From sequence record OQ834936: a DNA stretch of 64,000 bases, one strand, 5' to 3'. This DNA comes from Shigella phage Henu12. A program made the translations under genes and the position numbers. This document shows, one piece after another, positions 52,295 through 57,059 of the stretch (its first letter is position 1; every line of letters starts with the position of its first letter). The notes under the pieces were generated by a model. It did no database searches and was not told the origin of the DNA. It saw only the letters and a list, made by a program, of their open reading frames with translations.

Positions 52295-52295
<1 letters not shown>

Positions 52296-54532
52296 TATTC
52301 ATCCTCTGGGTAGCTAGAGTTTAACAGAATATCTTCCTGACTCTTATCAGTGATATCCACCATCTTAGTAGCAATCTGCTTACCATCCAGATTAAAGGAA
52401 ACGTTAAGCGTCTGCTTAGTTTGCAATGGTAGTCCAGAGGGAGTCATCATCATAGGTGTCTGGTTAAACTTGTTTGCAAAGTTATTTAGAGACTCAGACA
52501 GGTTGTTCATGATAATATCCCAATTTGACAAACCATTATCAACCCTCTGAATATTTCCAGAAGTGTCTGTGGTATATTGTGCAAACTGAAGTTGCCCATT
52601 CTGGTCAAAGAACATTGGACGTTTTGGATTAGTGATTCCTGAGATAGCTTCATTGAAAGGATTAGGTGTGTTAACCTCGTTAAATCTCTTTCCAGCATTC
52701 TTGTCAACTGAACCAGATAACATTAATGCAGAACCACCTACACCAAGAGCCATTCTGGTTGCTGATACACCAGCCGTTGTAGCTGCTGTTTCTGCTGCTG
52801 TAGTTAATCCAAACTTCTGTGCAATCTTAGCTAAGATACCTTCTTCAAAGATACTCTTGACAAATGCTACAGTACCACCAAAGATTTTAGCGACTTTTGT
52901 AATAGCTGCAATTGAGACACCAATAGCGGTGAACGTAGCAACTAACTCAGCAGAATCCTTGATTAGTTTCTGTTGACTAGCATCTAATTCCTTGAAATAG
53001 CCCATTGAGGTATAGTACAATGAAGAAATGCGGTACATGATATCTGTCACGAAGTCTAGAAGGTTACTAGCACCTTTTAAAAGGTAACCAATACCTGTAC
53101 CAAGTGCTTCAGATGTACCAAGGGAACCTTGCAAGAACATTGCAACTGAGTTAGAGAGTTGTGAGATACCTTCGCTAGAGTTGTTAAACAAAGCTACAAG
53201 GGTGTTATCCCACATTGCCTTTGCTTGACCCATAGAGGTAGCTGTCTGCTTAGAAACTGCATTCATACCACCTGCTGCTTCAACAAGCTCTCTCATTTTT
53301 TCTGAGACTTTTGGTAGAACGTCTTTTGCAAGAAGCTGACCATCTTTCATCATCTTGTCAAGTTCTTGTGGAGTTTTACCAATAGCATCAGCAAATAACT
53401 GAACCGCACCTGCCAAACGGTCACCTAACTGACCACGAAGTTCTTCAGCCTGAATCTTACCTTTAGATGCCATTTGCTGGAAAGCAACCATGATACCTTT
53501 CAAGTCTTCATCAGAAGCACCACGAATACGTGAGAACATAGCAGCATTTTTATAGAACTCTTGAGTTCCTTTAAAACCTAACTCTGGTTGAGCACCAGCA
53601 GCGAAGTTTGAGTACTGCTTCATAGTGTCTGTGTAGTTCTGACCAATCTGGTGAGAGAACGTAGCAGCGAACATTCTAGCTTGCTGTGTATCCCCTCCAA
53701 AGATAGCTGTTGAGGCTAACTGTGCAGACTGTCTCTTTACACCTGCATCAATAGTCTTCTGAGCTAATTCCAGCATAGCATACGCTGAAACAAAACCACC
53801 TACAAGCTGTCTTAGTGAAGAGTTTGCTCTGTCTTGTAACCAAGCTGACTCTCTGACTGCCTTAAGTCTAGCATTTTCTGCAATAACCCAACGTTTGGTA
53901 GTGTCAATGAGTTTCTTGACTTCCATCTCATACTCACCAACTTTACCACTACCTTTGTACTTATTATAGATTCCTTGTAAGCTTCCTCTGAAGGAAGTAG
54001 CCATTTGGTTACCTTGTCCACCAATTGTTTCAAGACGACGAGTCAAACCAGAATAGAAGTTGTTGTTAAACATTCTTTCCATCTGTCTTTGAGCAATATC
54101 AGGTCTAACTCTAGGTGAACCACCACCTCCAACCGGAGGGATAGTGTTACCACGGCCTCTACCAACTCCACCACGAACATTGACTTTACCTTCAACATTC
54201 ATAGCTTGTCTTAGAGCCTTATTAATTTCTTTGGCTGTTTTCTTACCCTGTGTTTCTAATCTACGAAGTGATTTTACACCTTGTGAATCTAAATTCATAG
54301 CATTGTTTAGGGATTTATTGATTCTGCCTGAAGCAGTCTGAGCGTTTTTTACAAGTCTGTTTAGAGCGTCTTGTGAACTTCTATTAGGCTTCACATCAAA
54401 GGCTTTATTGATATTGCGTTCAATACGTTGAGCAGACTGCATAGCCATTTTCTCAACTCTTTGCAAACCCTTAATAACCTTTTCACTGAATCCAAGTTCA
54501 ACAATAAAACTATCAACTGTATATTGTGCCAT
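52295..54532 (-). CDS. tail tape measure protein
   Basis: 745 aa, helical repetitive composition, G-rich segment, glycine-zipper-like hydrophobic stretch; positioned after the chaperones. Confidence 0.75.
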
Positions 54533-54821
54533 TAAATTTTACCTGCTTTTCTGAGTTCGTTGTAAGCCATTTCTTCTTTATATGACTTCTGGATTTCTAA
54601 ATATTGACGTAGAGATAATAAATCAACGAAGGTCATATCAAAAAGTTGGTTGAGTGTTTCTTTACACCCATCCATACCATAAATAGCAAGCACAAATTTC
54701 ATCTCATCTGCTTCATCATAAGTTGCCTTTACAGCCCCGTCAGTCAGCGGGGTCTGCATAGAATAACTTAAGCTTCCTGTTGAGAAGTTAGGCTTTTGAA
54801 AATGCTTGCCTCGAAAAAACT
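54532..54821 (-). CDS. tail assembly chaperone -1 frameshift extension (fusion with the 54768-55169 product)
   Basis: The -1 frame is open from 54855 to the stop at 54532 and passes through slippery heptamer U UUU UUC (54819-54813). Confidence 0.5.
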
Positions 54822-55169
54822 TCCGAAGTTTGCCTCCAAAGCAAAAGCTAAAAAGTCAATAAATTCACCGTAGTTCGCTTGGAAGTAACTATCAATTTTC
54901 AGTGGGAAGTCATTAACTGTTGCCCCCTGAAATAGTGTCTCTGCCATTGCATCAATATCTAGTTCATCAACCTTTTCAAAGCAAGCTTCAACGAGTTCTT
55001 TAAATGGGATTTTAGATTCCCCATCTTTAGAGGTTAAACCAGAGAACATCTGTGCAAATGCTGGTACAACTGCTTTACCAAGTTTCATAGAGATACGGAT
55101 ACCATCTCTTGCTCCAAGAAGAATAATAGTTACCTTCTTGCCATTAATCATTTTAGTTTCAGTCTTCAT
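54768..55169 (-). CDS. tail assembly chaperone
   Basis: 133-aa acidic protein between tail tube and tape measure; followed by the frameshift-accessible ORF. Confidence 0.6.
   Translation of the reverse strand: MKTETKMINGKKVTIILLGARDGIRISMKLGKAVVPAFAQMFSGLTSKDGESKIPFKELVEACFEKVDELDIDAMAETLFQGATVNDFPLKIDSYFQANYGEFIDFLAFALEANFGSFFEASIFKSLTSQQEA
54813..54819 (-). other. slippery heptanucleotide UUUUUUC (X XXY YYZ) for programmed -1 ribosomal frameshift
   Basis: In the upstream gene's frame reads AGU UUU UUC GAG; the -1 frame reads UUU UUU CGA. Confidence 0.5.
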
Positions 55170-55192
55170 TGTGATTCCTTAAAAGTTATGCT

Positions 55193-55233
55193 ATAAAAAC
55201 ACAAAAGGGGAAGACCTTTTACAGTCTCCCCCT
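55193..55233 (-). terminator. intrinsic terminator (GGGGGAGAC-loop-GUCUUCCCC plus U-rich run) after the tail tube gene
   Basis: 9-bp stem and UUUUGUGUUUUU on minus RNA. Confidence 0.6.
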
Positions 55234-55245
55234 TATTAGGATTTG

Positions 55246-55692
55246 TTAAACGCTTGACGCAGGGATTGTTGAAGTGTAGTCTAACTTCTCACAACCGAAA
55301 ATCCAAGTTTTCGAGTTCTGGTCACGACCTAATTCAATCTGTGGAAGCTCTTGCAACCAAGCATTAATACCTGTTGCCAGAACTGAACCAGATGGGTCGT
55401 AAATTACAAAGTTAGATGAGATATCTTCTTCAAGTTCCATGTCATCTTGTTTAGCTTGAATTGCAGAAAGCATCTGGTTTGATAGAGAAGTCTGCATTAG
55501 CTCAATCTCAATCGTACCTGTCTTGTCTGCATTTCTTGTCAGAGCTACTTGACCACCTGCACCTACAACTGGCGTAACAAGTGGAGAAGTTCTCTGAAGA
55601 CGCAAGAATGAGTCTGGTGCAAAACCTTCAATGGCAATGCCATTCCAGCTACAAACTACATCTTTAGGGGAATATTGCTGATACATAGCCAT
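55246..55692 (-). CDS. tail tube protein
   Basis: 148 aa, immediately downstream of the sheath gene. Confidence 0.6.
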   Translation of the reverse strand: MAMYQQYSPKDVVCSWNGIAIEGFAPDSFLRLQRTSPLVTPVVGAGGQVALTRNADKTGTIEIELMQTSLSNQMLSAIQAKQDDMELEEDISSNFVIYDPSGSVLATGINAWLQELPQIELGRDQNSKTWIFGCEKLDYTSTIPASSV

Positions 55693-55706
55693 TCCTAATT
55701 ACTCCT

Positions 55707-57059
55707 TTATTCGTAAGCCACTGTGCCTTTCAAGTCAACATCCAAGATAGCCCCTGCAAGAATACCGTGGAAGGTAACGTCTTTCAGGATACGTGCTTTC
55801 TTATCTGCCAATGCAACTTGTGAGGCTTTAGGAACAGTAACGGTGTAAGTTGACAAAAAGTTTCTGTTAACTGCTCGCTGAAGAGATGTTTCAATGACCT
55901 GACGAATACGGGTAATACCAGTATCATCATAAGTAATCTTACCACCCTTCTGATTAATTAGCAAGTCTCTCAGAGATGTTTTCAAATCAGATTCAAGCCA
56001 ATCAACACCACGTACAATATCAATCCATTCACCACCAGAAGTGATACCTCTACGCACTACAGGAACCCCACCATCGAGGTCAATGAAATTACAGCTACGG
56101 GTATCCAAAGCTGACTTCTGAATGCTTGTCAGTGGTCTCTGGTTAGCAGGTTGTAGAGATGCTGCAACACCAGTTAATTGAGCGTTACCCCAAGCAATTG
56201 AACCTGCATCATATGGAGAACCATATGCGATGTAAGCCATTTCTGGGTAGTCATACTCGGCTGTGTGATGCCACAAGCAAACTGTACGAGTGTACTTGCT
56301 CTTAGCTAACTGTGCCGGAACGTCAGTAGCAGAAGCCAGTTCAGTTCCTTGCAGAGCTTTCACGTCATTGCTTGCTGTGAAGAAAATCTTTCTGCGAGCC
56401 TGAATCTCAGAAGCCATTGCAGTAACGAACTGTGAAGTTCTGTCTTCAGTTGCAATAAAGTACCAATCAGTTGAGTACGTTTCAATTGCAGCCAGAGCTA
56501 CAGAAGCACTATCAGCAGTTGTTGCAGAGATTGAAAGAGTCTGTGCAGTTGTTGTAACTTTTACGAAATCATTCTCTCCAGCTTTTGTGATAATCATCGT
56601 AGCAGAACCAGCAGAACCGGAAACGCTAACTGTTACATTATCCTTCAAAGCAGGGTTTGCTTCAATCTGTGTCTTAAACTGAGTCAGTACAACTTCAGCA
56701 GTGTCATCAGACTGAGCAGTGTACTGGAACGGTTGAGAAACACCGCCACCTACAGCAACTGTCAGAGAGTAATCTGTACTTTCAGTAACTTCGTCAGGAA
56801 TAGAAACAGTATATTGCATAGTTCTTCTACCAATATACAGTTGAGTTACTTTTGGAGTTTGGCTCCATAGCTGTTTTGCAGCTTTATACGCAGCAGTACT
56901 TTCATCAAAGTCTTCAGCTACTTCTGTTAATGAAGTATAACCACGGATTCTTTCTTCAAAGTTATCTGTTGAAGCAAGGAATAATGGTAAACCAAAACCT
57001 TCTCTTGTAGTTCCTGCTGTGTTCAATGTAATATCTACATTAACAATTGGATTCCACAT
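55707..57059 (-). CDS. contractile tail sheath protein
   Basis: 450 aa; position and general character of sheath proteins. Confidence 0.7.
   Translation of the reverse strand: MWNPIVNVDITLNTAGTTREGFGLPLFLASTDNFEERIRGYTSLTEVAEDFDESTAAYKAAKQLWSQTPKVTQLYIGRRTMQYTVSIPDEVTESTDYSLTVAVGGGVSQPFQYTAQSDDTAEVVLTQFKTQIEANPALKDNVTVSVSGSAGSATMIITKAGENDFVKVTTTAQTLSISATTADSASVALAAIETYSTDWYFIATEDRTSQFVTAMASEIQARRKIFFTASNDVKALQGTELASATDVPAQLAKSKYTRTVCLWHHTAEYDYPEMAYIAYGSPYDAGSIAWGNAQLTGVAASLQPANQRPLTSIQKSALDTRSCNFIDLDGGVPVVRRGITSGGEWIDIVRGVDWLESDLKTSLRDLLINQKGGKITYDDTGITRIRQVIETSLQRAVNRNFLSTYTVTVPKASQVALADKKARILKDVTFHGILAGAILDVDLKGTVAYE

What the first reader, a model, noticed from the sequence alone, without database searches (positions are those of the whole stretch)
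54532..55169. Programmed -1 frameshift site (UUUUUUC) in the tail assembly chaperone pair
Seen: the chaperone gene 54768-55169 contains AGU UUU UUC GAG 16 codons before its stop; the -1 frame is open from there through the stop at 54532, so a slip on the X XXY YYZ heptamer would give a fused longer product. Established: tailed phages conserve a programmed frameshift in the two chaperone ORFs between the tail tube and tape-measure genes (lambda G/GT, P2 E/E'). Inference: the 54532-54759 ORF of the track is the frameshift extension rather than an independent gene.
Basis: partly seen in the sequence, partly recalled or inferred. Interest (0 to 1): 0.5.

Follow-up and report, generated by a model that had tools for sequence, protein, structure and literature searches.

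The report
Known tail-chaperone frameshift site, Felix O1-like phage
This is the usual programmed -1 ribosomal frameshift that makes a short and a long tail-assembly chaperone in a Felix O1-like (Mooglevirus) phage; the site is real and strongly conserved, but it is already annotated and published for sister phages, so it is ordinary.

Summary
On the minus strand the 133-codon chaperone gene (55169-54768) reads AGT TTT TTC GAG at codons 117-120. The heptamer T TTT TTC (54819-54813) is the only in-frame X XXY YYZ in the gene. The -1 frame is open from codon 105 to the TAA at 54534-54532, which overlaps the tape-measure ATG. A slip would give a 212-aa fusion. The window is a Mooglevirus, 100% identical to Shigella phage Henu11 over this stretch. 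Comparative evidence is strong. The heptamer is in frame in all 34 unique Ounavirinae sequences, down to 44% protein identity. Codons 117-125 are frozen at synonymous sites (8 of 9, against 1 of 26 upstream). The ATG of the 75-aa ORF is not conserved, and Erwinia-phage relatives have no start codon for 55 codons. An Alteromonas phage has T TTT TTT at the same motif. No 3' RNA structure is supported. A GGAGG 13 nt upstream may act as a Shine-Dalgarno-like stimulator. I found no experimental proof.

The parts
54768..55169 (-). Short tail assembly chaperone (TAC-N, lambda gpG analogue), 133 aa, made by standard translation
   Evidence: ORF. Pfam PF21822 Phage_TAC_15, E = 1e-19. PHROG 1613 'tail assembly chaperone', E = 1e-48.
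54813..54819 (-). Slippery heptamer T TTT TTC (codons AGT TTT TTC, 117-119), the proposed -1 shift site
   Evidence: Only in-frame X XXY YYZ in the gene. In frame and invariant in all 34 unique Ounavirinae sequences. Same T-run annotated as 'ribosomal slippage' in Michonne. T TTT TTT at the homologous motif in Alteromonas phage PT11-V22.
54532..54813 (-). -1-frame extension, 93 codons plus stop. It starts by re-reading C54813 and forms the C-terminal 'T' part of the 212-aa long form, join(55169..54813, 54813..54532).
   Evidence: Frame open. The extension aligns across lineages and fusion lengths are 209-217 aa. All full-length tblastn matches of the fusion come in two frames.
54532..54759 (-). 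The 75-aa ORF usually annotated as a separate gene. It is the distal part of the extension.
   Evidence: PHROG 4963 'tail assembly chaperone', E = 2e-51. Its ATG is not conserved in relatives.
54794..54822 (-). 29-nt block AAGTTTTTTCGARGCAAGCATTTTCAAAA, invariant except for one position. It holds the shift site and the start of the dual-coded overlap.
   Evidence: Alignment A1 of 12 lineage representatives. Codon-level counts.
54833..54837 (-). Internal Shine-Dalgarno-like GGAGG with a 13-nt spacer to the heptamer. Candidate 5' stimulator (inferred).
   Evidence: Only 14 GGAGG on this strand in 64 kb, and no start codon follows this one. Invariant in 29 enterobacterial-lineage sequences while the flanking synonymous sites vary; absent in Erwinia and Hafnia lineages. 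The working spacing for -1 shifts is 9-14 nt (PMC5009743).
55205..55234 (-). Intrinsic terminator-like hairpin (12-bp stem, T-tract) between the tube gene and the chaperone gene. It probably lowers chaperone and tape-measure transcript levels relative to sheath and tube.
   Evidence: Scan. Annotated as a terminator at the homologous place in Michonne.
52295..54532 (-). Tape measure protein, 745 aa. Its ATG overlaps the stop of the extension (TAATG).
   Evidence: Pfam PF20155 TMP_3; PHROG 4036. Junction sequence.
55246..55692 (-). Tail tube protein (KPP10 Orf10 / rV5 Orf52-like), directly upstream
   Evidence: Pfam PF11681. PHROG 280.
55707..57059 (-). Tail sheath protein (DUF3383)
   Evidence: Pfam PF11863; PHROG 205 'tail sheath', E = 1e-118.

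Best explanation
Most ribosomes translating the chaperone gene (55169-54768) stop at TAA 54770-54768 and make the 133-aa short chaperone. A minority slip back one base on U UUU UUC (54819-54813), with the P-site and A-site tRNA-Phe re-pairing from UUU UUC to UUU UUU. Those ribosomes continue in the -1 frame to TAA 54534-54532 and make a 212-aa long form: residues 1-119 of the short form, a roughly 20-residue linker, and a roughly 70-residue conserved C-terminal domain. By analogy with lambda gpG/gpGT, both forms coat the tape measure protein, and the extra domain of the long form recruits the tube protein to start tail polymerisation. Neither form is expected in the finished virion. What is shown here is the sequence layout, its conservation, and the lack of an independent start in several lineages. 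What is inferred is the slip itself, its efficiency, a stimulating role for the GGAGG 13 nt upstream, and the assembly function.
For: Frame geometry and the unique heptamer. Synteny of sheath, tube, TAC, extension and tape measure, with TAC family matches. The heptamer is in frame in every relative and the -1 frame always runs to about the tape-measure start. The codon choice AGT TTT TTC is invariant in 34 unique sequences, although codon usage predicts it only about 5% of the time for S-F-F. Synonymous freezing starts at codon 117 (8 of 9 against 1 of 26, p = 3e-6). There is no conserved start for the downstream ORF: Erwinia phages have none for 55 codons, Hafnia phages none for 27-37, and L025 has ATA in place of ATG. 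Fusion length is conserved at 209-217 aa and the extension is homologous across lineages. No relative has an in-frame fusion; 298 records hold both parts in two frames. Alteromonas phage PT11-V22 has T TTT TTT at the same N-F-x-S-F-F motif, with the -1 frame ending at its tape-measure start. Curators and authors reached the same conclusion. The lambda mechanism is summarised in PMC5009743.
Against: I found no experimental evidence (fusion peptide, reporter assay or mutant) for any Ounavirinae phage. No 3' stimulatory structure is supported: z = 0.23 over 63 nt and z = -1.54 over 123 nt, the alifold consensus is only -6.8 kcal/mol on invariant columns, and there is no Rfam match. According to PMC5009743, U-rich heptamers such as U UUU UUA and U UUU UUU are much less shift-prone in E. 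coli than A AAA AAG, so efficiency may be low. In this phage an ATG (54759) lies 8 nt after the chaperone stop, so some independently made 75-aa product is possible. Pseudomonas Nankokuvirus relatives keep the two-frame layout with a non-canonical GTT TTT C, so the exact slip mechanism may not be a classical tandem slip everywhere.
Confidence: 0.85

Rival explanations
1. Transcriptional slippage. RNA polymerase stutters on the T6 run and adds one extra U to a fraction of transcripts. Standard translation of those mRNAs then gives the same 212-aa fusion.
For: What is conserved most widely is a T-run (GTTTTT) rather than a fixed heptamer phase: T6 in Ounavirinae, T7 in the Alteromonas phage, and T5 in a different codon phase in Nankokuvirus (PMC12846349). 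No 3' RNA stimulator was found.
Against: PMC5009743 describes bacterial transcriptional slippage on runs of about 9 A or T, and six is short. In Ounavirinae and the Alteromonas phage the run sits in the exact X XXY YYZ phase. A GGAGG sits at the 9-14 nt spacing expected for a ribosomal stimulator.
Confidence: 0.07
2. Two independent genes only. The 75-aa ORF is translated from its own ATG (54759), perhaps by coupling or reinitiation after the chaperone stop 8 nt upstream. The heptamer would then be a by-product of the conserved S-F-F residues.
For: An ATG is present close to the upstream stop in the Moogle and Felix O1 clades. Many GenBank records annotate two separate CDS. An AGGAAG lies 13 nt upstream of the ATG.
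Against: The ATG position is not conserved, and Erwinia, Hafnia and L025 sequences have no usable start. Synonymous freezing begins at the heptamer, not at the ATG. The codon choice AGT TTT TTC is invariant, against about 5% expected from codon usage. The -1 frame is kept open upstream of the ATG in all lineages.
Confidence: 0.04
3. P-site-only (single-tRNA) slippage on the U-run rather than a tandem two-tRNA slip. The product is the same or differs by one residue at the junction.
For: Nankokuvirus relatives have GTT TTT CAA, where only one tRNA-Phe can re-pair perfectly. The review notes evidence for peptidyl-tRNA-only slippage in a dnaX variant.
Against: In this phage the full canonical heptamer is present and conserved in phase. 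The two mechanisms cannot be told apart from sequence alone.
Confidence: 0.04

Closest known systems
Tape-measure chaperone frameshift annotated in Citrobacter phages Michonne, Moogle, Mijalis and Mordin (Mooglevirus)
   Same: Same genus and about 94% nucleotide identity. The heptamer and flanks are identical. Michonne's joined CDS 'ribosomal slippage (47149)' maps to the same T-run and gives the same 212-aa product. The frameshift is stated in the genome announcements.
   Different: Nothing of substance. The record identical to this window (Henu11), and several others (Sf14, 3HA14), annotate two separate CDS or hypothetical proteins instead.
Conserved GTTTTT frameshift motif in TAC-N genes of Vandenendeviridae and Andersonviridae (phage Adele paper, PMC12846349)
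   Same: Same locus and the same argument: the -1 frame is open through the 'intergenic' region, and a poly-T motif is conserved near the 3' end. The paper covers 231 Andersonviridae phages, the family that contains Mooglevirus.
   Different: That paper is also purely comparative. Here the site is resolved as a full canonical T TTT TTC heptamer in Ounavirinae, against a non-canonical GTT TTT C in Nankokuvirus. Synonymous-site and start-codon tests were added.
Lambda gpG/gpGT (Levin 1993; Xu, Hendrix and Duda 2004, 2013, 2014)
   Same: Position between the tube and tape-measure genes. [quoted passage not shown] Short and long forms that share an N-terminal part. The functional model.
   Different: No detectable sequence similarity to lambda G or T; the match is to a different Pfam TAC family (PF21822). 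The heptamer is T TTT TTC, whereas lambda uses G GGA AAG (from memory). This is a myovirus with a sheath. Ratio and function are untested here.
P2 E/E+E' and Mu gp41/42 myovirus chaperone pairs
   Same: A contractile-tail phage with the same two-ORF -1 arrangement before the tape-measure gene (established knowledge, Xu et al. 2004).
   Different: Different protein families. Not compared directly here.
E. coli dnaX and IS-element -1 frameshift cassettes
   Same: An X XXY YYZ heptamer with a Shine-Dalgarno-like element 9-14 nt upstream. Here the GGAGG is at 13 nt.
   Different: No 3' stem-loop was found. The heptamer is U-rich rather than A AAA AAG. The SD-like element is absent in the Erwinia and Hafnia lineages.

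Membership tests
Phage tail assembly chaperone pair with programmed -1 frameshift (lambda G/GT type, Xu et al. 2004) | The gene pair lies between the major tail (tube) gene and the tape measure gene | tested here: met
   Sheath 57059-55707, tube 55692-55246, TAC 55169-54768, extension to 54532, tape measure 54532-52295.
Phage tail assembly chaperone pair with programmed -1 frameshift (lambda G/GT type, Xu et al. 2004) | [quoted passage not shown] | tested here: met
   The -1 frame is open from codon 105 of the first ORF to 54532. The same holds in all relatives.
Phage tail assembly chaperone pair with programmed -1 frameshift (lambda G/GT type, Xu et al. 2004) | A slippery sequence lies in the overlap, in phase, and is conserved among relatives | tested here: met
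   T TTT TTC at 54819-54813. It is invariant in 34 unique sequences, with synonymous freezing.
Phage tail assembly chaperone pair with programmed -1 frameshift (lambda G/GT type, Xu et al. 2004) | The downstream ORF does not depend on its own translation start | tested here: met
   The start codon is not conserved and is missing in the Erwinia, Hafnia and L025 lineages. In this window an ATG does exist, at 54759.
Phage tail assembly chaperone pair with programmed -1 frameshift (lambda G/GT type, Xu et al. 2004) | The upstream protein belongs to a recognised TAC family | tested here: met
   Pfam PF21822, 71.7 bits against a cut-off of 22. PHROG 1613 and 3840.
Phage tail assembly chaperone pair with programmed -1 frameshift (lambda G/GT type, Xu et al. 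2004) | TAC three-dimensional fold | tested here: inconclusive
   The single-sequence AlphaFold2 model has mean pLDDT 52, which is too poor for a fold search. No PDB relatives were found by sequence.
Phage tail assembly chaperone pair with programmed -1 frameshift (lambda G/GT type, Xu et al. 2004) | Both short and long products are made in a fixed ratio, both are needed for tail assembly, and both are absent from virions | not testable with these tools
   This needs proteomics and genetics. I found no such data for Ounavirinae.
dnaX/IS-type -1 frameshift cassette (5' SD-like element + heptamer + 3' stem-loop) | A Shine-Dalgarno-like sequence 9-14 nt 5' of the heptamer | tested here: met
   GGAGG at 54837-54833 with a 13-nt spacer. 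It is conserved only in the enterobacterial-host lineages.
dnaX/IS-type -1 frameshift cassette (5' SD-like element + heptamer + 3' stem-loop) | A stable 3' stem-loop or pseudoknot 5-9 nt after the heptamer | tested here: not met
   z = 0.23 over 63 nt. The consensus fold is -6.8 kcal/mol and shows no real covariation near the site. No Rfam match.
Transcriptional slippage site | A homopolymer run long enough for RNA polymerase realignment (about 9 A or T in bacteria, per PMC5009743) | tested here: not met
   The run is T6, at 54819-54814.

The most novel reading that the evidence does not exclude
The shift may be tuned differently in different lineages, without any RNA structure. Phages of Escherichia, Salmonella, Citrobacter and Shigella carry an invariant internal GGAGG 13 nt upstream that would raise -1 frameshifting by pairing with 16S rRNA. 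Erwinia and Hafnia relatives lack it, and Pseudomonas relatives use a non-canonical GTT TTT C. On this reading the short-to-long chaperone ratio is set by different means on a homologous site.
Probability: 0.3. Interest if true: 0.3.

Novelty: already known. Interest (0 to 1): 0.1.

Why it matters
The main use is correct annotation. The record identical to this window (Henu11), and many Felix O1-like genomes used in phage therapy and biocontrol work, list two separate 'hypothetical' or 'chaperone' genes where a joined frameshift CDS belongs. The locus adds nothing conceptually new to recoding or tail assembly. It is a clean, deeply conserved U UUU UUC example with no 3' structure and a possible 5' SD-like stimulator, and so could serve as a simple test case for U-rich shift sites in enterobacteria.

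Tried and rejected
1. I looked for a downstream stimulatory RNA structure. Folding 63 nt and 123 nt after the heptamer gave z = 0.23 and z = -1.54. RNAalifold on 12 lineage representatives gave only -6.8 kcal/mol, mostly A-U and G-U pairs on invariant columns. Rfam gave nothing at E up to 1. I rejected this as unsupported.

2. The hairpin CCCCG-N8-CGGGG (54752-54735) is about 55 nt downstream and is absent from Felix O1-like genomes. It is too far away and not conserved, so I did not count it as a stimulator.

The short form alone gave pLDDT 52, so I ran no fold search. I ran no further search on an ordinary finding.

4. NCBIfam and the PDB sequence search on the fusion gave no meaningful matches.

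5. I looked for natural in-frame G-T fusions among relatives and found none in the sampled rows.

6. I looked for experimental literature on Felix O1-like chaperone frameshifting and found none. Vladimirov et al. 2022 is not held in the library. According to PRFect's summary, it concerns separate short and long genes in T4-like phages, which does not fit this layout.

7. A +1 shift is rejected, because the +1 frame closes 11 codons after the site.
Full report
**1. What is in the sequence**

All the genes discussed here are on the minus strand. The 133-codon ORF 55169-54768 reads AGT TTT TTC GAG at codons 117-120. The heptamer T TTT TTC therefore occupies 54819-54813 in the canonical X XXY YYZ phase. 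It is the only in-frame heptamer of that type in the gene. The -1 frame is open from codon 105 to the TAA at 54534-54532, and that stop overlaps the ATG of the next gene (TAATG). The +1 frame closes after 11 codons. A -1 slip would join residues 1-119 to 93 further residues and give a 212-aa protein.

**2. Context and identity**

The flanking genes, in order, are:
- a tail sheath (57059-55707; DUF3383, PHROG 205);
- a tail tube (55692-55246; KPP10 Orf10-like);
- the chaperone (Pfam PF21822 Phage_TAC_15, E = 1e-19; PHROG 1613, E = 1e-48);
- the 75-aa ORF (PHROG 4963, 'tail assembly chaperone');
- a 745-aa tape measure protein.

The stretch 54300-55900 is 100% identical to Shigella phage Henu11 and 94-99% identical to other Mooglevirus phages such as Sf14, Sf17, Michonne and Moogle. 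The genus belongs to Ounavirinae, family Andersonviridae. A strong terminator-like hairpin (55234-55205) separates the tube gene from the chaperone gene and is annotated as a terminator in Michonne.

**3. Is it more than chance?**

In a single sequence the evidence is weak. In-frame X XXY YYZ heptamers occur at 0.0027 per codon in this window's long ORFs, so a 29-codon overlap would hold one about 8% of the time. This is, however, the only in-frame TTTTTTN among 18,917 codon positions.

The comparative evidence is decisive.
- Across 34 unique chaperone genes from IMG/VR contigs and GenBank phages, down to 44% protein identity (Erwinia phiEa21-4-like and Hafnia phages), TTTTTTC is always present and in frame. 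The -1 frame always continues to about the tape-measure start.
- Of the 26 amino-acid-invariant, codon-degenerate columns upstream of codon 117, only 1 is codon-invariant. From codon 117 to 125, 8 of 9 are (Fisher p = 3e-6).
- Codons 117-119 lie before any dual coding and yet are always AGT TTT TTC. The window's codon usage predicts that choice only about 5% of the time for S-F-F.
- The sequences are phylogenetically related, but the upstream and downstream columns share the same tree, so the contrast between them is fair.
- A 29-nt block (54822-54794) has a single variable position across all lineages.

**4. Extension or independent gene?**

The ATG at 54759 is not conserved. Felix O1-like genomes have CTA at that codon and an ATG four codons earlier. 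One contig (L025) has ATA there and no start codon for 36 codons. Hafnia-type phages have none for 27-37 codons, and Erwinia phages have none for 55 of 94 codons. The extension nevertheless aligns from the slip site onward, the conserved C-terminal domain begins before those starts, and the predicted fusion length is held at 209-217 aa. A tblastn search with the fusion finds 298 phage records that hold both parts, always in two frames, and none with an in-frame fusion in the sampled rows. That is what is expected if both the short and the long form are needed. Outside the family, Alteromonas phage PT11-V22 (35% identity) has AGT TTT TTT at the same N-F-x-S-F-F motif, with 113 open -1 codons that end exactly at its tape-measure start. 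Pseudomonas Nankokuvirus phages (27% identity) keep the layout but have TCG GTT TTT CAA, which is not a canonical heptamer.

**5. Stimulators**

No 3' structure is supported. The 63 nt after the site fold no better than shuffled sequence (z = 0.23) and 123 nt give z = -1.54. The consensus fold of 12 lineages is only -6.8 kcal/mol, with pairs on invariant columns. Rfam has no match. The invariance of the block is better explained by dual coding: E-A-S-I-F-K in frame 0 and R-[GS]-K-H-F-Q-K in frame -1.

Upstream, a GGAGG (54837-54833) lies 13 nt before the heptamer. Only 14 GGAGG occur on this strand in 64 kb, and no start codon follows this one. It is invariant in the 29 enterobacterial-lineage sequences even though the adjacent synonymous positions vary (TTG/CTG, GCA/GCT). 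It is absent from the Erwinia and Hafnia lineages. The Atkins et al. review gives 9-14 nt as the working spacing for Shine-Dalgarno-like stimulators of -1 shifts, as in dnaX and many IS elements (PMC5009743). A stimulating role here is my inference, not a demonstrated fact.

**6. Mechanism and rivals**

The best-supported reading is a classical tandem -1 slip of two tRNA-Phe on U UUU UUC. This yields a minor 212-aa long chaperone beside the major 133-aa form. By analogy with lambda gpG/gpGT, both forms would bind the tape measure and the extra domain would recruit tube subunits.

The rivals are these.
- **Transcriptional slippage on the T-run.** The more widely conserved feature is GTTTTT, but six T is short compared with the roughly nine described for bacterial slippage.
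- **Two independent genes.** This is contradicted by the start-codon and synonymous-site data.
- **Single-tRNA P-site slippage.** This cannot be distinguished from a tandem slip by sequence.

No experiment on any Ounavirinae phage was found.

**7. Comparison with what is known**

This is not new. Michonne's GenBank record has a joined CDS labelled 'ribosomal slippage (47149)' that maps into the same T-run. [quoted passage not shown] The 2025 phage Adele paper reports a conserved GTTTTT motif in the TAC-N genes of 231 Andersonviridae phages and cites the Mooglevirus annotation (PMC12846349). Many records still annotate two separate genes, including the one identical to this window.

**8. Verdict**

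The feature is an already known kind and an already predicted instance. Interest is low. The only mildly new points are the codon-level evidence, the lineage-restricted SD-like element, and the non-canonical site in the Pseudomonas relatives.

Noticed in passing
window 54833-54837 (- strand): An internal GGAGG lies 13 nt upstream of the heptamer and no start codon follows it. It is invariant in 29 enterobacterial-lineage sequences while neighbouring synonymous sites vary. It is absent in Erwinia and Hafnia relatives. It may be an SD-like frameshift stimulator.
   Followed up: partly
window 54735-54752 (- strand): Hairpin CCCCG-N8-CGGGG immediately after the ATG at 54759. Contigs L008 and L009 have CCCCA...TGGGG, a double synonymous change that keeps the pair. 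Felix O1-like genomes lack the hairpin. It could damp independent initiation at that ATG, or it could be coincidence.
   Followed up: partly
window 55205-55234 (- strand): Strong intrinsic-terminator-like hairpin (12-bp stem, T-tract) between the tube gene and the chaperone gene, annotated as a terminator in Michonne. It probably sets lower expression of the chaperone and tape measure relative to sheath and tube.
   Followed up: partly
L036, L037, L040 (Pseudomonas phages PAK_P3, PAK_P5, Epa18), around locus positions 1820-1840: These homologous chaperones have TCG GTT TTT CAA at the equivalent motif (NFGSVFQA). There is no canonical heptamer, yet 100 codons of the -1 frame stay open up to the tape-measure gene, which suggests a non-canonical slip on a U5 run. 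PAK_P5's chaperone CDS is annotated as a truncated 89-aa ORF.
   Followed up: partly
L041 (Alteromonas phage vB_AmeM_PT11-V22, MN877442), locus about 1839-1845: A marine myovirus outside Andersonviridae has AGT TTT TTT at the same motif, and the -1 frame is open to the tape-measure start. The record annotates only a 39-aa 'hypothetical protein' there, so the frameshift looks unannotated.
   Followed up: yes
GenBank records seen: Several annotations look inconsistent. VpaE1_ev035 and SUT_S920 call this chaperone a 'head closure protein'. SFPB calls one of the pair 'tape measure protein'. Erwinia phage Coenus splits the extension into two small CDS. 'Listeria phage LPML1' (OK283618) and 'Campylobacter phage A132' (MG065664) carry typical Ounavirinae chaperone loci, so their host labels look doubtful.
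   Followed up: no
window 1-64000: ARAGORN finds no tRNA gene in the 64-kb window, although Felix O1-like genomes carry about 22-25 tRNAs (PMC5543628). The tRNA cluster must lie in the roughly 25 kb of the genome outside this window.
   Followed up: no
L025 (IMGVR_UViG_3300045988_004167), about 40 nt after the heptamer: In this Felix O1-like metagenomic contig the usual ATG of the downstream ORF is ATA. The extension then has no start codon for 36 codons. This is a natural variant, or a sequencing error, that fits with the ATG being dispensable.
   Followed up: partly
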